In this document: positions 51,873-58,809 of the stretch, one piece after another
Position numbering within the stretch: position 1 is the stretch's first letter
Layout: the number at the start of each line of letters is the position of its first letter
Assembly (NCBI RefSeq): GCF_030384885.1
Contig: NZ_CP128613.1
Reading direction: 5' to 3' (one strand)
DNA: 64,000 bases
Source of the DNA: Escherichia coli
GTDB taxonomy: Bacteria > Pseudomonadota > Gammaproteobacteria > Enterobacterales > Enterobacteriaceae
Program-made: the position numbers and the translations under genes
The notes under the pieces: model-generated
Database searches by the model: none
Told to the model about the DNA's origin: nothing
Seen by the model: the letters and a program-made list of their open reading frames with translations, nothing else

Positions 51873-51950
51873 AATATCTATAAAGACATAATAAATATTT
51901 TTGATATTATGATTAGTTGCATGGTATTAAATAAAAACAGGAAAAATATC

Positions 51951-52355
51951 ATGCTAAAAATAAAAACAAAGATCTATATACCTACAACTTTAACAGGAAA
52001 CATGGATAAACACTATATCCCTGTTTTAGAGGATTTAAGAAAAGCGATATACAGCGACAGAATGTTATCAAGGCTTGCAGATAGCGGCAATATTGTTATC
52101 CATAGTTCAGTTGGGTATCCGGTTGCTAAATACAAAAATACGGGTATTAGCATAGGTATAGAACCATTGAATCCAATGATAAGACAAAATCTGACTCTTG
52201 GATATATTATGGTTGTCAGAAACGGAAAAGCATCACAGGAGATTAATGGTTTACTTAACAGGTCATTGCCAAAAGCAATAAGCACTTTTAAGGATCACAT
52301 CAATGAATATGAAGCAGTAAAAAGTAAAATGCGACAACAAACTATGATCTGGTAA
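51951..52355 (+). CDS. hypothetical protein
   Basis: ORF 51909..52355, internal ATG 51951. Confidence 0.45.
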   Translation: MLKIKTKIYIPTTLTGNMDKHYIPVLEDLRKAIYSDRMLSRLADSGNIVIHSSVGYPVAKYKNTGISIGIEPLNPMIRQNLTLGYIMVVRNGKASQEINGLLNRSLPKAISTFKDHINEYEAVKSKMRQQTMIW

Positions 52356-52469: not shown

Positions 52470-53432
52470 TTGCTATCCATCCAGAACGTCATAGCCAATA
52501 CCGATCCGTTCTTTCTTCTCCGGTTCTTCCACCATACCGTTCTGATTGAAGAAGGAACAACGCTGGCAAGTATCTTTCTGGCAATAGAACCATGGAAGGC
52601 TTTGTTAGCAGCTTATCTGGACAGAGATGTTGGTGCTTATATAGATGAGGTAAGAAAACCGTCCGGGCCAACGGCATGGGATATTGAATGGATCGGAATT
52701 GACCGTCGAAGTTCGGTTTATCGCGCTTACAAGCGTCAGGATATGGAAGAAGGGGAGGATTTTTCGACCTATTTTAATCGCGAGCGCTTCCCGACTGATG
52801 AGCTTGACATAGAAAGTAGCTGTGATGCTTCCGGCTTTATCAAAGGAGATAAAGAACGCTGGAGTATCAGCGGCGATATTCAACAAATTAAAAATCTTCC
52901 TGTAATCCTCTATAGCAAACAGACATTAATGACTTCACCGAAAGACGGTTTGCTGAAGAAAAACGTATCGGGTGTGAAGAGTTCCAAGCACAGTTGCTTT
53001 GTTTATGGCGATACCTCGTTTTCTTTTAGAGAGGTTATGGAAGCCATCTTCATTAGTAGGCTGTTCTTCTATGCACCAAAAGACGCAGCCAGCAGCCTTG
53101 ATGAGCTGAAAGCGAGTCTGGCTGAACTGGAAGAAGAACGTGCTGAAAGCACAAATACGGAGTCGATCGGCAATGAAACAGGTGAAGAACCTACCATCGT
53201 CGTAGCCGACGGTGCTTTTGATTCGCTCGCTGCTCACATGGAGTCTGAAAAGCGGAGTGGCAATCCATTAAGAAGTTGTGCCAGCAGGAAGGAGGGCTGC
53301 CCATACGTATTGGCAACATCAAAATGGCTGAGCCTCCAGCGTTATAGCTATTTTAAGAAAAGAAATGATGTAAATATGCATCTGGTTTTTCTTTATAATG
53401 TAAGGATGTCCGATGAAACATCAGCATCGTGA
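52470..53432 (+). CDS. hypothetical protein, possibly frameshifted at N-terminus
   Basis: 320 aa ORF with only a TTG start and no SD; a 33-codon ORF with strong RBS (aggagaagg) begins at about 52393 in the -1 frame and overlaps. Confidence 0.45.
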   Translation: MLSIQNVIANTDPFFLLRFFHHTVLIEEGTTLASIFLAIEPWKALLAAYLDRDVGAYIDEVRKPSGPTAWDIEWIGIDRRSSVYRAYKRQDMEEGEDFSTYFNRERFPTDELDIESSCDASGFIKGDKERWSISGDIQQIKNLPVILYSKQTLMTSPKDGLLKKNVSGVKSSKHSCFVYGDTSFSFREVMEAIFISRLFFYAPKDAASSLDELKASLAELEEERAESTNTESIGNETGEEPTIVVADGAFDSLAAHMESEKRSGNPLRSCASRKEGCPYVLATSKWLSLQRYSYFKKRNDVNMHLVFLYNVRMSDETSAS

Positions 53433-55705: not shown

Positions 55706-55754
55706 ATGATAACGGAAAAGGGCCACAATTATTTGTGGCCTATATATACACATA

Positions 55755-56132
55755 TTAATCAAGCAGGCCACGAGATGTCTTACTTGCAGTCTGACGAAAA
55801 TCATAACGTTCCGCAATATCACCTTTAAACCAGATATCCAGTGATTTAATGTGCGCCGTGTTGCTATTGGTCAACAGAGCAAGGCCCGGTATGTAGTTAG
55901 ATAGTTGGCTTTCTCCCGTCATACTTGAGTAGTTCCACATCTCCTGACCATCAGTCGTAGCGCGTGTTTGAGGCTCTCCAAAGGCAGCAAGAATTTCTTG
56001 TTGGGTAGTTTTTCCCTTGACGATTTTTAATTTAACCGTTTGATGATTTTCATCAGTTAGGGATTTATTACCATGAACGGTACAGCCACTAAGTGGTAAT
56101 ATGATAAAAATAGCAAGTAATAATTTTTTCAT
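55755..56132 (-). CDS. lipoprotein with SmpA/OmlA (BamE)-like domain
   Basis: Signal peptide with lipobox LSGC; ...KGKTTQQEILAAFGEP... resembles BamE fold family. Confidence 0.55.
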   Translation of the reverse strand: MKKLLLAIFIILPLSGCTVHGNKSLTDENHQTVKLKIVKGKTTQQEILAAFGEPQTRATTDGQEMWNYSSMTGESQLSNYIPGLALLTNSNTAHIKSLDIWFKGDIAERYDFRQTASKTSRGLLD

Positions 56133-56163
56133 TTTGTTCCATAATTAGATGAAAGGTGAGACG

Positions 56164-56652
56164 TTAGAAAACATACTTTTTAAATACCAGCATCCATCGC
56201 TCACAAAGTTCGTGATTTGAAGTGCTTTTATTTTTCAAGGGAACATTAACTTTCCACATGGGATTTTTAATATCATCGGTTAAAATATTTAGACCAGACC
56301 GTTTGTTTGCTGAAAGTTGTTCTCTCCAGTTAGCAATGGCCGCATTATTCATACCTCGTAATGTTCCATTGCCGTAAAACTTACCACCTTCTGAAAGCGT
56401 ATAATTTATTTCTCGAATTTGATCAAAAGTATATGTGCTATCTTTATCTTTATTGAAAATACGGACAGTATGTTTTTGAGTATCAATGACAATACCTGTC
56501 TGTTGGCATTGATACGAAAGAATGTCGCCGTCCAGAACTTCCGTGAAGCTGTTGTAGTGCTTTTTCTTCTGTATATCTGCTGCGGTCATGATAATGACGA
56601 AGAGCACCACTAAAAATACGATACCTGTTGCTTCCACTTTTACTTCCTCCAT
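56164..56652 (-). CDS. hypothetical membrane-anchored protein
   Basis: 162 aa ORF with one N-terminal TM helix; weak RBS. Confidence 0.45.
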   Translation of the reverse strand: MEEVKVEATGIVFLVVLFVIIMTAADIQKKKHYNSFTEVLDGDILSYQCQQTGIVIDTQKHTVRIFNKDKDSTYTFDQIREINYTLSEGGKFYGNGTLRGMNNAAIANWREQLSANKRSGLNILTDDIKNPMWKVNVPLKNKSTSNHELCERWMLVFKKYVF

Positions 56653-56769: not shown

Positions 56770-56912
56770 ATGATCGATATAAAAGATCGATAATTGCTTA
56801 TTGATAGATTCTAACGATTAAACAGATGATATCGATCGGCAATTAATTGTTATTATCGATCGAATATCAACTTATGATAGCTGCAAGCTATCATGTGGTC
56901 GTTTTTGATCGT
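56770..56912. promoter_or_regulatory. GATC-dense divergent intergenic region with repeated ATCGATCG motifs and a 21-bp near-palindrome
   Basis: Five GATC sites in about 140 bp; atgatagctgcaagctatcat near-palindrome at 56874..56894. Confidence 0.4.
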
Positions 56913-57069
56913 TTTAAACGATATGACGAGACGCTAAAAGAATTGAATCCTATCAATTGGTTAAGCGGTGGTTTTGCCATGTGATATCAGCCGGATCCCG
57001 CAACAACTCAAGCCCTGACCGGATTAGGTCAAAAATTTAGGCACTTTGATTATCAGGATGGACAAGCAG

Positions 57070-57600
57070 ATGAAGAAGATTTTACTCGTTGTAGGCGCAA
57101 CTCTGGCACTGGCGGGATGTGGTGAGAAAGGTGATTTTGAGAAGGCGATCAATGCCAAGATAGGGCAGGACAAATATTGCTTCTCGCTGGATAACAATAA
57201 CACCAGCTTCCCCATCCGTCTTGCCAAGCCACGACTTGATTCGACTGGCACAGGGACGAATTCAGTGATCCTCGACGGTTTTATTGAGCAGGGCCTGATG
57301 GTTTTTGAACAGGGCTATGATTCGAACGTATTAGGGATAACAGAGGAAGGCAAAAAAGCCAAAGTCTGGAGCACAAGAGACGGTGCTTGTGTAGGTCGTC
57401 GTGCTGTTGATGAGATTAAGGAATGGACGGAGCCGGGAAACGGTAATCAGAAAGTAGTTCGCGTGACTTATACGTGGAAGTTGGTTGACGTTCCGGGCTG
57501 GATTGACAAAAAAGCCTTCGCCAGCGTTAAAGGAATGAATGAACCTGCTGATGGTGCAATGAATCTTGTTAAAACAAGTAATGGCTGGAAAGCTAACTAA
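57070..57600 (+). CDS. hypothetical lipoprotein
   Basis: ORF 57046..57600, start MKKILLVVGATLALAGC (lipobox). Confidence 0.6.
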   Translation: MKKILLVVGATLALAGCGEKGDFEKAINAKIGQDKYCFSLDNNNTSFPIRLAKPRLDSTGTGTNSVILDGFIEQGLMVFEQGYDSNVLGITEEGKKAKVWSTRDGACVGRRAVDEIKEWTEPGNGNQKVVRVTYTWKLVDVPGWIDKKAFASVKGMNEPADGAMNLVKTSNGWKAN

Positions 57601-57695: not shown

Positions 57696-58268
57696 TTATA
57701 TCGATTTGTTAGATACTTTCATCAATTTCTCTTGAATTTTTCTTATTCTTTCAAGTTCTTCAACAATGGGATTTTTCTCGCCTTCACTTTGCATGAAAGG
57801 GCTTAAGTCTATATTGTTTTTTTCAACAACTTCTTTATTCATATAACTGTACGTTGCGGTTATTGTAAATTGTTGTGGTAACGGATTTTTCGATTCTCCA
57901 AAAATAACCCAACCTTGACCAAGGGCGAAGAATAACTCTTGATTGGGCGCTAAGCTATCAATAGTCGATGTAAAAATACTTGTTTCTTTTAGGTTTTTAG
58001 TTGGCTCATCGAACTGATAAAAATCCTTATCTAATTCTAATTTTACATTCAGGGCTGGTGTCTTACCGCTATTATAAATTTTCAGGTATAGGAATTGCGA
58101 GTGAGGTCTTACCATTGGCTGGATTATTATATAAGGACGAGACATTGCCTCGGTTTGCTCATTCATTATCTGAGCTGTTCGTTCGCTTATTCTCGACATC
58201 TTGTATGTCAAAAATGCATAAATTCCTGTAATGATAACAAGAATTGCTGTAAGTATTTCCATTGTCAT
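57696..58268 (-). CDS. hypothetical membrane-anchored protein
   Basis: 190 aa, N-terminal TM helix, strong RBS aggag. Confidence 0.55.
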   Translation of the reverse strand: MTMEILTAILVIITGIYAFLTYKMSRISERTAQIMNEQTEAMSRPYIIIQPMVRPHSQFLYLKIYNSGKTPALNVKLELDKDFYQFDEPTKNLKETSIFTSTIDSLAPNQELFFALGQGWVIFGESKNPLPQQFTITATYSYMNKEVVEKNNIDLSPFMQSEGEKNPIVEELERIRKIQEKLMKVSNKSI

Positions 58269-58314
58269 GATTAACTCCTAAGTATAATGATTCATACCAG
58301 TAAGGTATAATATT

Positions 58315-58809
58315 TTAACTATTATTGCATTTTTTTCTGTTGAATAGTTGATTATATCCAAGTTCCATTTCTTCAATAAAATCTTCATTAAATGTTGGAA
58401 ATCCACACGCCAGTGGTTCTTTCCCTCGAATTTTGAATAAGTTATAAAGATAACTACTTTCTTTATATGCGACATGAATGGCAGGATATGGCCTATTTTT
58501 TATAATCTTATTGTTTAGTTCCTTATCATTGATAATGTTATATTGATCCCCCGTTATATCAACTACAATATTATCTATCTCAAGCCAGTAATGGGTTATT
58601 TGACTATTTTTTCCGGTAGTTGCGCTAACTCCTTTTAGCTCACATTCAGGCCATAGGGTCAGAAAATGGTAAGAAAGAAGCATTGAGGTAAGCTTACAAC
58701 TCATAACAGGAAAACAGTCTATAACAAGACTGGTGTTCTTTTTATCACAACTTTCAATTAATCTACGAAGCTTAACTGCTTCTTCTTTTATTTCGATAAT
58801 GGTTGGCAA
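58315..58809 (-). CDS. hypothetical protein
   Basis: 164 aa, TTG start preceded by gggag RBS, 46 bp upstream of 57696..58268 on same strand. Confidence 0.5.
   Translation of the reverse strand: MPTIIEIKEEAVKLRRLIESCDKKNTSLVIDCFPVMSCKLTSMLLSYHFLTLWPECELKGVSATTGKNSQITHYWLEIDNIVVDITGDQYNIINDKELNNKIIKNRPYPAIHVAYKESSYLYNLFKIRGKEPLACGFPTFNEDFIEEMELGYNQLFNRKKCNNS

What the first reader, a model, noticed from the sequence alone, without database searches (positions are those of the whole stretch)
55755..56652. Membrane-anchored protein plus BamE-like lipoprotein pair adjacent to Thoeris
A 162-aa protein with an N-terminal TM helix is followed on the same strand by a lipoprotein (lipobox LSGC) with an SmpA/OmlA-like fold signature. 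The pair is transcribed divergently from the GATC-dense region. Envelope-located gene pairs in mobile islands often mediate entry or superinfection exclusion or phage-receptor masking.
Basis: inference. Interest (0 to 1): 0.4.

Follow-up and report, generated by a model that had tools for sequence, protein, structure and literature searches.

The report
Switch-controlled membrane/lipoprotein cassette of mobile island
The two genes are real, but they are a conserved, uncharacterised cassette of a ROD21-like mobilizable island rather than part of the neighbouring Thoeris system. They sit behind a DNA block built like the Salmonella opvAB Dam/OxyR on-off switch, so they may be an envelope barrier made by only some cells.

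Summary
ORF 56164-56652(-) encodes a 162-aa protein with one N-terminal TM helix and a Pfam DUF4755 domain. ORF 55755-56132(-) encodes a 125-aa lipoprotein (LSG|C, Thr at +2) that is a divergent member of the BamE/BLIP-like fold.

They are orthologues of SEN1983/SEN1984 of Salmonella island ROD21. The pair occurs in 393 of 5426 complete E. coli genomes; the fuller stretch that includes Thoeris occurs in only 48. Thoeris is one of several alternative cargos beside it.

Three points are new here.
- The DUF4755 domain almost certainly faces the cytoplasm, so the two proteins are not a periplasmic pair.
- DUF4755 follows relaxase genes in two unrelated island families. The lipoprotein also occurs alone, after cI in lambdoid phages and between traG and traD in F-type plasmids.
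- The GATC-dense block upstream is about 190 bp long and conserved across genera. Its GATC sites and OxyR-type half-sites reproduce the published opvAB geometry to within 1 bp.

Best reading (inferred, about 0.4): a bistably expressed, element-encoded envelope barrier, that is surface/entry exclusion or receptor masking. The function is untested. Rivals are a relaxosome membrane tether and a host-interaction lipoprotein.

The parts
56164..56652 (-). Gene for a 162-aa inner-membrane-anchored DUF4755 protein (orthologue of ROD21 SEN1983). It has one N-terminal TM helix, and the C-terminal domain is predicted to be cytoplasmic.
   Evidence: ORF. Pfam DUF4755, E 7.6e-14. Three to five K/R residues lie just after the TM and 0-1 before it; 2-TM and TM-less relatives exist. 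dN/dS 0.09-0.14.
55755..56132 (-). Gene for a 125-aa lipoprotein (SEN1984 family). Lipobox LSG|C, Thr at +2, which predicts outer-membrane sorting. Divergent BamE/BLIP-like fold.
55721..55740 (.). GC-rich hairpin (GGCCACAAATAATTGTGGCC) between the convergent ThsB and lipoprotein genes. Probably a bidirectional terminator that ends the two-gene operon.
   Evidence: Terminator scan. Sequence.
56770..56925 (-). Conserved cis block upstream of the DUF4755 gene, built like the opvAB Dam/OxyR switch. GATC sites start at 56772, 56785, 56834, 56858 and 56907. OxyR-type dyads lie at 56773-56787 (7/10), 56804-56818 (9/10), 56846-56860 (8/10), 56877-56891 (10/10) and 56908-56922 (8/10).
   Evidence: GATC positions and conserved 49/24-25/49/13 spacing in 12 loci. 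Alignment across genera. Four of the five window-wide dyad matches fall here (1.6 expected). Half-site scores. opvAB geometry: PMC4856963.
57046..57600 (+). Divergent neighbour: a SEN1982-family lipoprotein gene on the other side of the cis block. It may be co-regulated, so it is context rather than a proven part.
   Evidence: ORF. Lipobox hits. RefSeq name. Conserved divergent arrangement.

Best explanation
**What it is (shown)**
- A two-gene operon belonging to the backbone of a ROD21-like (EARL/serU-type) integrative mobilizable island in E. coli. It is independent of the adjacent Thoeris cargo.
- Gene 1 makes a protein anchored in the inner membrane by one N-terminal helix. Its DUF4755 domain faces the cytoplasm (strongly inferred).
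- Gene 2 makes a small lipoprotein with a BamE/BLIP-like protein-binding fold, probably sorted to the outer membrane because it has no Asp at +2 (inferred).
- Upstream lies a cis block whose GATC sites and OxyR-type half-sites match the opvAB switch geometry.

**How it most likely works (inferred)**
- OxyR and Dam compete at alternative half-sites, so only a subpopulation transcribes the operon.
- In ON cells the lipoprotein binds a conserved envelope component and blocks incoming DNA, meaning a phage or a conjugative mating partner. This would resemble TraT, Sfx, Cor or Llp.
- The DUF4755 protein would act from the cytoplasmic face of the inner membrane, as TraS or SXT Eex do, or on the mobilization machinery.
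For: **Backbone status**
- The pair is in 393 of 5426 complete E. coli genomes, always chromosomal, and 392 of these hold at least 80% of the 898-bp two-gene stretch.
- The neighbouring slot holds Thoeris, ComEA, DUF4238 or a SAM methyltransferase (PMC3198454).

**Conserved cassette near relaxase genes**
- Found in Salmonella minimal islands, Yersinia, Brenneria, Samsonia and Pantoea-type islands.

**Topology**.

**Lipoprotein fold**.

**Contexts of lipoprotein homologues**
- A moron with its own promoter after cI in phages S107 and PhiR26_1.
- Between traG and traD on Burkholderia MPF_F plasmids, the position that traS and traT occupy in F (the F gene order is from my own knowledge).

**Switch**: compared with PMC4856963.

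**Precedent**: lipoprotein exclusion factors carried by mobilizable elements, namely Sfx on IMEs and ColE1 mbeD (PMC11493245).
Against: - No functional data exist for either protein, and there are no literature hits for DUF4755.
- Neither protein matches any known exclusion family, PADLOC model or spanin.
- The lipoprotein is 75-87% identical across genera. Exclusion factors usually diversify, so this conservation fits binding to a conserved host component better than to a donor adhesin.
- One E. coli genome carries three copies of the pair, which is awkward for self-exclusion.
- The two genes occur apart, and each is a pseudogene in some lineage (PMC3198454).
- The cis block persists where the pair is absent. 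It may therefore serve the divergent SEN1982-type lipoprotein operon or have a role of its own.
- OxyR binding, methylation patterns and the promoter were not tested. The promoter scan found no more sites than chance would give.
Confidence: 0.4

Rival explanations
1. DUF4755 is an accessory of the mobilization module. It would be a membrane tether that docks the relaxosome or relaxase at the inner membrane or at the helper's coupling protein, functionally like R1162/RSF1010 MobB. The lipoprotein would be a separate passenger.
For: DUF4755 lies directly downstream of the relaxase gene in two unrelated relaxase families: PF03389 and PF03432. In Pantoea the lipoprotein is absent. The domain is cytoplasmic and membrane-anchored. 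DUF4755 is absent from phages.
Against: TM-less versions exist away from an adjacent relaxase gene. In the window and many E. coli islands, cargo and an oppositely oriented gene separate it from mobQ. A switch-controlled accessory of transfer is unusual. DUF4755 is a pseudogene in ROD21, which still transfers (PMC3198454; PMC3976249, from the abstract).
Confidence: 0.2
2. The lipoprotein is a host-interaction or fitness factor, for example serum or complement resistance or modulation of envelope stress, like lambda Bor, Iss or TraT. Or it is a BamE paralogue that alters BAM/OMP assembly, rather than a barrier to incoming DNA.
For: It has a BamE/OsmE-like fold. It sits on a pathogenicity-associated island; transposon-screen hits in ROD21 lie nearby, e.g. 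SEN1982 (PMC6968874). Its very high conservation suggests a conserved host target. Phage morons expressed with cI include such factors (my own knowledge).
Against: Homologues also occur in plant-associated Dickeya and Pectobacterium, in Burkholderia plasmids and in an Alteromonas phage, where serum resistance is irrelevant. Its consistent placement next to transfer genes is not explained.
Confidence: 0.15
3. The conserved GATC/dyad block is not an expression switch. It would instead be a replication, partition or sequestration site of the excised island: iteron-like dyads bound by an island protein, with GATC bound by SeqA.
For: The block is retained where no gene follows it until repL about 1.1 kb away. 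It is more conserved than the flanking coding DNA. GATC clusters are typical of origins (my own knowledge).
Against: Eight landmarks coincide within 1 bp with the opvAB switch, including which half-sites are perfect and which are degenerate and overlap GATC. One dyad is a 10/10 OxyR consensus in nearly all loci.
Confidence: 0.15
4. The pair is an accessory component of the adjacent Thoeris system or another anti-phage defence system.
For: Physical adjacency only. Both flanks of the pair are defence-cargo hotspots.
Against: Only 48 genomes hold at least 80% of a query that includes Thoeris, against 393 that hold the pair. The genes are convergent and separated by a terminator. There is no meaningful PADLOC hit; the only one is a weak Cas6 match at E 0.004. 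The same pair sits beside unrelated cargos.
Confidence: 0.03
5. The pair is a two-component spanin or lysis cassette: a membrane-anchored i-spanin plus an outer-membrane lipoprotein o-spanin.
For: Superficially similar gene order and sizes.
Against: The membrane protein's domain is cytoplasmic, not periplasmic. It has beta-rich predicted structure rather than a coiled coil. The lipoprotein is a 109-aa folded domain, not a short Pro-rich peptide. Neither protein has a spanin PHROG hit. No holin or endolysin is nearby.
Confidence: 0.02

Closest known systems
opvAB (STM2209-STM2208) Dam/OxyR phase-variation switch of Salmonella enterica
   Same: Both have four GATC sites with near-identical spacing: 49/24-25/49 here against 50/23/50 start to start. 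Both have four OxyR-type half-sites. Measured from GATC1 they lie at +24.5/+55.5/+97.5/+128.5 here against +24.5/+56.5/+97.5/+129.5, and match the consensus at 10/8/9/7 against 10/8/10/7. The degenerate sites overlap GATC2 and GATC4 in both. Both lie in low-GC horizontally acquired DNA upstream of genes for membrane proteins (PMC4856963; PMC3350482).
   Different: The downstream genes are unrelated: OpvA and OpvB are inner-membrane proteins that control O-antigen length. This block has a fifth GATC 13 bp after GATC4 and a fifth dyad overlapping GATC1. It sits between divergent operons on a mobilizable island. OxyR binding and bistability were not tested here. Sequence-level homology to opvAB could not be checked because the sequence was not obtainable.
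F plasmid TraS/TraT and IncC/IME Sfx exclusion factors
   Same: An inner-membrane protein plus an outer-membrane lipoprotein, encoded side by side within or next to transfer genes. Lipoprotein homologues lie between traG and traD on MPF_F plasmids. IMEs are known to carry orphan surface-exclusion lipoproteins (PMC11493245).
   Different: There is no sequence relationship to TraT, TraS, Sfx, TrbK or Eex. The lipoprotein is much smaller and has a BamE-like fold. DUF4755 has one TM and a cytoplasmic domain, whereas TraS is polytopic (my own knowledge). Exclusion was not tested.
Phage lysogenic-conversion lipoproteins that block receptors (T5 Llp, phi80/N15 Cor)
   Same: A small outer-membrane lipoprotein carried by mobile elements. 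Phage homologues of this lipoprotein sit in moron positions: after cI with their own promoter, or next to tail genes.
   Different: The only similarity to Llp or Cor is within the signal peptide. No receptor is known for this family.
BamE / OsmE / BLIP (SmpA_OmlA, Pfam PF04355 clan)
   Different: It falls below Pfam's BamE threshold on its own. It is island-, phage- and plasmid-borne rather than the housekeeping BAM subunit. It has an extra insert (residues about 72-92) and a distinctive GN(K/Q)SL...GKTT motif.
ROD21 / EARL island genes SEN1983-SEN1984
   Same: These are orthologues with the same position and orientation between SEN1982 and the cargo slot. RefSeq uses the name 'SEN1984 family lipoprotein' for the E. 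coli copies.
   Different: In S. Enteritidis SEN1983 is a pseudogene and the cargo slot holds a SAM methyltransferase (PMC3198454). This island flanks tRNA-Ser rather than tRNA-Asn.

Membership tests
Pfam DUF4755 (PF15947) | Domain match above the curated gathering score | tested here: met
   52.2 bits against a cut-off of 27, residues 43-158. All 13 members of alignment A4 match.
BamE-domain (SmpA_OmlA) superfamily / BLIP-like fold | Sequence-profile relationship to the BamE domain | tested here: met
   Its own score is sub-threshold (15.1 against 23.2).
BamE-domain (SmpA_OmlA) superfamily / BLIP-like fold | Three-dimensional fold (helix plus antiparallel sheet) resembling BamE, OsmE or BLIP | tested here: inconclusive
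BamE proper (BAM complex subunit) | Housekeeping core-genome gene that passes the family threshold | tested here: not met
   It is below the Pfam cut-off and has no NCBIfam BamE hit. It is located on a mobile island present in 7% of E. coli genomes.
BamE proper (BAM complex subunit) | Binds BamA/BamD | not testable with these tools
   No interaction data; structure-prediction jobs were exhausted.
Bacterial lipoprotein (Lol-sorted, outer membrane) | Lipobox L-[AS]-[GA]-C after an n- and h-region; no Asp at +2 | tested here: met
   MKKLLLAIFIILPLSG|CT. LPAM_1 hit. Cys17 is invariant. Outer-membrane sorting is inferred from the +2 rule (established knowledge).
Thoeris system | Component co-inherited with ThsA/ThsB or matching a Thoeris model | tested here: not met
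   No Thoeris model in PADLOC matches either protein. Only 48 genomes hold at least 80% of a query that includes Thoeris, against 393 that hold the pair. The genes are convergent and separated by a terminator.
Known exclusion families (TraT, TraS, TrbK, Eex, Sfx, Cor, Llp) | Sequence membership | tested here: not met
   No Pfam, NCBIfam or PHROG match beyond signal-peptide-level similarity.
Known exclusion families (TraT, TraS, TrbK, Eex, Sfx, Cor, Llp) | Reduces entry of DNA when expressed in the recipient | not testable with these tools
   Needs mating and phage assays.
Two-component spanin | i-spanin with periplasmic coiled coil, short Pro-rich o-spanin lipoprotein, lysis-cassette context | tested here: not met
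   The domain is cytoplasmic. Neither protein has a spanin PHROG hit. No lysis genes are nearby.
opvAB-type Dam/OxyR switch | Four GATC sites spaced about 50/23/50 | tested here: met
   Spacing is 49/24-25/49, plus a fifth site at +13, in the loci compared, against PMC4856963.
opvAB-type Dam/OxyR switch | Four OxyR half-sites; sites A and C are near-perfect, sites B and D are degenerate and overlap GATC2 and GATC4 | tested here: met
   Scores of 10/8/9/7 at +24.5/+55.5/+97.5/+128.5. Four of the five dyad matches in the 64-kb window fall here, against 1.6 expected.
opvAB-type Dam/OxyR switch | OxyR binding, alternative methylation patterns, bistable transcription | not testable with these tools
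   No methylome or expression data were available, and the literature search found none for this locus.
opvAB-type Dam/OxyR switch | Promoter immediately downstream of the last half-site | tested here: inconclusive
   By eye there is an extended -10 candidate: TGATAGCCT in E. coli, TGGTATGCT in other genera. The consensus scan found no more promoter-like sites than chance.
ROD21-like (EARL) mobilizable island | tRNA-flanked island with MobA/MobL relaxase, TraD, type IV pilin plus PilV, H-NS paralogues, integrase and RDF | tested here: met
   The island starts after tRNA-Ser at 43794-43883. MobA_MobL, PilS, Shufflon_N and H-NS are all present. RepL is present. The integrase was seen in the E. 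coli WW2 copy, beyond the window end. Gene-for-gene match to ROD21.

The most novel reading that the evidence does not exclude
An opvAB-type Dam/OxyR epigenetic switch is a portable, conserved module of Enterobacterales mobilizable islands. It is present in about 7% of complete E. coli genomes, including a strain Nissle 1917 assembly. It would drive bistable expression of a previously unrecognised barrier made of an inner-membrane DUF4755 protein and an outer-membrane BamE-fold lipoprotein, which excludes phage or conjugative DNA in a subpopulation. The Salmonella opvAB switch may be a relative of this element.
Probability: 0.25. Interest if true: 0.75.

Novelty: new variant of a known kind. 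Interest (0 to 1): 0.5.

Why it matters
The cassette is widespread. It is in 393 of 5426 complete E. coli genomes, including a strain Nissle 1917 assembly and other human isolates. It also occurs in Salmonella, Klebsiella, Yersinia, Pectobacterium and Dickeya. It is completely uncharacterised.

If the upstream block works like opvAB, it would add to the few Dam/OxyR-controlled loci characterised so far (agn43, gtr, opvAB). It would also be one that travels on mobile elements. That would mean these islands split their host population into ON and OFF cells for an envelope trait. Such a split bears on phage therapy, on plasmid spread into island carriers, and on the use of Nissle as a chassis.

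The work also corrects the tempting reading that the pair belongs to Thoeris. It maps two defence-cargo slots flanking a fixed backbone, which helps in mining these islands for new defence genes.

Tried and rejected
**Structure and sequence searches that gave nothing usable**
- The AlphaFold2 model of the DUF4755 protein was too poor to use (pLDDT 50), so no fold search was run on it.
- Profile searches of both families against PDB sequences gave nothing significant. The 'adiponectin' and T5 Llp hits are a repeat artefact and signal-peptide similarity.

**Family libraries**
- PADLOC and PHROGs gave no function for DUF4755.
- The weak NCBIfam 'C-type lysozyme inhibitor' hit (E 0.008) includes the hydrophobic segment and was discarded.
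- I considered a PH-like fold for DUF4755 (beta strands plus a C-terminal helix; 2-TM relatives resemble bPH proteins). I could not test it, and member-wise Pfam scans showed no recurrent second family.

**Literature**
- There are no papers on DUF4755. Searches with CFT073 locus tags returned irrelevant papers. The EARL family paper does not list the pair among conserved genes.
- I could not obtain the opvAB upstream sequence from the papers. The comparison therefore rests on the published coordinates, not on an alignment.

**Scans and rejected ideas**
- The scan of viral contigs for the switch architecture returned only copies of this same element, with no opvAB or gtr.
- Treating the GATC block as oriT was considered unlikely. 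In the minimal islands, and by analogy with the layout of other mobilization regions, oriT is expected in the divergent region upstream of the relaxase gene. This is inference, not a test.
Full report
**Observation.** Both ORFs are present as described. ORF 56164-56652(-) encodes 162 aa and ORF 55755-56132(-) encodes 125 aa. They are 31 nt apart. A GC-rich hairpin at 55721-55740 follows them and is shared with the convergent ThsB gene.
- The 162-aa protein matches Pfam DUF4755 above threshold (52.2 bits).
- The 125-aa protein has the lipobox LSG|C and a sub-threshold BamE match (15.1 bits).
- ThsA and ThsB are a type I Thoeris pair.
- Both genes evolve under purifying selection: dN/dS is 0.09-0.14 and 0.04-0.20.

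**Where the pair lives.** The chromosomal flank is E. coli at 100% identity. The island begins after tRNA-Ser(CGA) at 43794-43883. It carries:
- H-NS paralogues, DUF4756 and a RepL-like gene;
- a MobA/MobL (MobQ) relaxase;
- a PilS-type pilin and a PilV shufflon adhesin.

The annotated E. coli WW2 copy adds TraD and an integrase. Gene for gene this is the layout of Salmonella island ROD21, and the pair corresponds to SEN1983 and SEN1984. SEN1983 is a pseudogene in S. Enteritidis (PMC3198454). RefSeq already names the proteins 'DUF4755 domain-containing protein' and 'SEN1984 family lipoprotein'. Phyre2 has already linked SEN1984 to BamE (PMC10655114).

**The pair is backbone and Thoeris is cargo.**
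- The pair occurs in 393 of 5426 complete E. coli genomes. It is always chromosomal, and 392 genomes hold at least 80% of the 898-bp two-gene stretch.
- Only 48 genomes hold at least 80% of a 3.4-kb query that also spans part of ThsA, ThsB and the genes beyond the pair.
- The slot next to the lipoprotein holds Thoeris here. It holds a ComEA-family gene in Nissle 1917, a DUF4238 gene in strain ECO21, and a SAM methyltransferase in ROD21.
- A second slot lies between the SEN1982-type lipoprotein and mobQ. It holds DUF8453 plus a YunG-like gene here, macro+TIR+TcpC in Nissle, and Drt5 in ECO21.
- PADLOC has no meaningful model for either protein.

Adjacency to Thoeris therefore carries no functional information.

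**The lipoprotein.** Close homologues are 75-87% identical from E. coli to Dickeya and Pectobacterium. An exhaustive search found 255 cluster representatives of lipoproteins about 125-135 aa long.
- Of 60 sampled, 54 hit the Pfam BamE domain.
- The AF2 model is only moderate (pLDDT 61, core about 85).

It is therefore a divergent member of the BamE/BLIP fold, which is a protein-binding scaffold, and not the BAM subunit itself. Thr at +2 predicts outer-membrane sorting (established Lol rule; inference).

**The DUF4755 protein.** The family is confined to Enterobacterales, apart from one Pasteurellaceae hit. Three lines of evidence place the domain in the cytoplasm.
- Single-TM members have 3-5 K/R residues in the 12 residues after the helix and 0-1 before it.
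- A divergent branch has two N-terminal TM helices with a K/R-rich N-terminus, which again puts the domain inside.
- TM-less members with no signal peptide exist.

The two cysteines that are invariant in the close clade are not conserved in the wider family, so they are unlikely to form an essential periplasmic disulfide. The AF2 model was unusable (pLDDT 50). No PDB, PHROG or second Pfam relationship appeared.

**Linkage.**
- DUF4755 followed by the lipoprotein is conserved in Salmonella minimal islands (int...mobA-DUF4755-lipoprotein-alpA), Yersinia, Brenneria, Samsonia and Affinibrenneria.
- It is also conserved, with a lipoprotein only 37% identical, after a PF03432 relaxase in CP014129.2.
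- The genes also occur apart. DUF4755 is alone in a Salmonella island and in Pantoea, always just after the relaxase.
- The lipoprotein is alone behind the same upstream block in two viral-collection contigs (L036, L038; organism not given). It also follows a Zn-ribbon/2-TM protein after a relaxase.
- DUF4755 is absent from phages. Lipoprotein homologues (31-40% identity; phrog_3135) sit immediately after cI in Salmonella phage S107 and E. coli phage PhiR26_1. In S107 a terminator-like hairpin precedes the gene, and both phage copies share a promoter-like sequence upstream, which is a classic moron layout. Another sits before the tape-measure gene of a Klebsiella phage.
- On Burkholderia MPF_F conjugative plasmids the homologue lies between traG and the coupling-protein gene. 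In F that position holds traS and traT (my own knowledge).

**The upstream block.** The 'GATC-dense region' is a block of about 190 bp. It is conserved from E. coli to Yersinia, Brenneria, Samsonia and Enterobacter, even where synonymous sites of the adjacent genes are saturated.
- Five GATC sites keep a spacing of 49/24-25/49/13 in every locus examined.
- Four of the five matches in the whole 64-kb window to the OxyR/LysR-type dyad ATnGnTnnnAnCnAT fall within 120 bp here, against 1.6 expected by chance.
- One of them is a perfect ATAGnTnnnAnCTAT.

The published opvAB switch has GATC centres at -172.5, -122.5, -99.5 and -49.5. Its OxyR half-sites are at -148, -116, -75 and -43 and match the consensus at 10, 8, 10 and 7 of 10 positions. 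The weak sites overlap GATC2 and GATC4 (PMC4856963).

Measured from GATC1, the half-sites compare as follows:

| | Site A | Site B | Site C | Site D |
|---|---|---|---|---|
| opvAB position | +24.5 | +56.5 | +97.5 | +129.5 |
| This block, position | +24.5 | +55.5 | +97.5 | +128.5 |
| opvAB match to consensus | 10 | 8 | 10 | 7 |
| This block, match | 10 | 8 | 9 | 7 |

The overlaps with GATC sites are the same in both. Agreement at eight landmarks within 1 bp is very unlikely by chance. I infer that OxyR and Dam compete here and that expression is bistable. Neither was tested, and I could not obtain the opvAB sequence for an alignment.

A shorter version (GATC-N9-GATC, then ATGATAG-N7-CTATCA, then GATCGG) lies between the relaxase and DUF4755 in the Pantoea-type islands.

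There are caveats. The block is retained where the pair has been lost, next to the divergent SEN1982-type lipoprotein operon. It may therefore control that side, both sides, or have another role. No promoter could be called with confidence.

**Mechanism.** What is shown:
- the anatomy, phylogenetic distribution, linkage and selection of the two genes;
- the lipoprotein's fold class;
- the geometry of the cis block.

What is strongly inferred is a cytoplasmic DUF4755 domain and an outer-membrane lipoprotein.

What is inferred with about 0.4 confidence is that this is an envelope barrier encoded by a mobile element and expressed in a subpopulation. The lipoprotein would bind a conserved envelope component and hinder phage adsorption or mating-pair formation. 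DUF4755 would act at the cytoplasmic face of the inner membrane. Precedents are TraS/TraT, the IME-borne Sfx lipoprotein and ColE1 mbeD (PMC11493245), and the surface-modifying loci controlled by Dam/OxyR: agn43, gtr and opvAB (PMC4856963).

The evidence against this reading is:
- there is no sequence link to any exclusion family;
- the lipoprotein is unusually conserved;
- one genome carries three copies;
- the two genes are separable;
- each gene is a pseudogene somewhere (PMC3198454).

The main rival is that DUF4755 is a MobB-like membrane tether of the relaxosome, because its most constant neighbour is the relaxase gene.

**Verdict.** The finding is real and the lipoprotein call was right. 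The link to Thoeris is coincidental and the 'envelope pair' picture needs correcting. The proteins are already catalogued but uncharacterised. The new and testable element is the opvAB-like block, together with the recurrent placement beside transfer and immunity genes.

Noticed in passing
window 56770-56925: A block of about 190 bp, conserved across genera, with five GATC sites (spacing 13/49/24/49) and five OxyR-type dyads. Its geometry matches the published opvAB Dam/OxyR switch within 1 bp. It is kept even in islands that have lost the DUF4755/lipoprotein pair.
   Followed up: yes
window 46832-48682 (+): A 616-aa NACHT-domain protein (E 3.8e-10). It is probably a bacterial NLR-like defence gene in another cargo position of the same island, between the H-NS paralogues. 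The E. coli WW2, Nissle and ECO21 copies have no gene of this kind there.
   Followed up: partly
window 57696-58809 (-): The second cargo slot, between the SEN1982-type lipoprotein and mobQ. Here it holds a 190-aa TM protein (RefSeq 'DUF8453'; phrog_9607) and a 164-aa protein with a weak YunG-like hit. The same slot holds macro+TIR+TcpC in Nissle 1917 and Drt5 in strain ECO21, so these two genes are candidate defence or virulence cargo.
   Followed up: partly
window 57046-57600 (+); L021 4529-5662; L030-L033: The SEN1982-family lipoprotein is conserved divergently across the GATC block. In other genera a second lipoprotein of about 190 aa and a small Zn-ribbon/2-TM protein accompany it. RefSeq sometimes misnames it 'DNA-directed RNA polymerase subunit beta'.
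   Followed up: partly
window 22763-43883: Four tRNA-Asn genes and one tRNA-Ser lie within 21 kb, with intervening integrase-type (Arm DNA-binding) and hyp/MFS genes. This suggests at least one further island or island remnant upstream of the one studied.
   Followed up: no
window 52470-53432 (+) and 51909-52355 (+): Two backbone ORFs (320 aa and 148 aa) with no Pfam or PADLOC hit. The 320-aa gene corresponds to ROD21 SEN1986/c2406 and is frameshifted in E. coli WW2.
   Followed up: no
L014, L039-L041 (Salmonella/E. coli-type and Pantoea loci): A second family of mobilizable islands: tyrosine-recombinase trio, mobC-like gene, PF03432 relaxase. It carries the same short GATC/dyad element followed by DUF4755 or by a Zn-ribbon membrane protein plus the lipoprotein, flanked by methylase, AAA ATPase and YaaC-type cargo.
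   Followed up: partly
E. coli strain 23CRST029, NZ_AP045796.1 (hit H35): This genome carries three copies of the DUF4755/lipoprotein stretch, so several related islands coexist in one chromosome.
   Followed up: no
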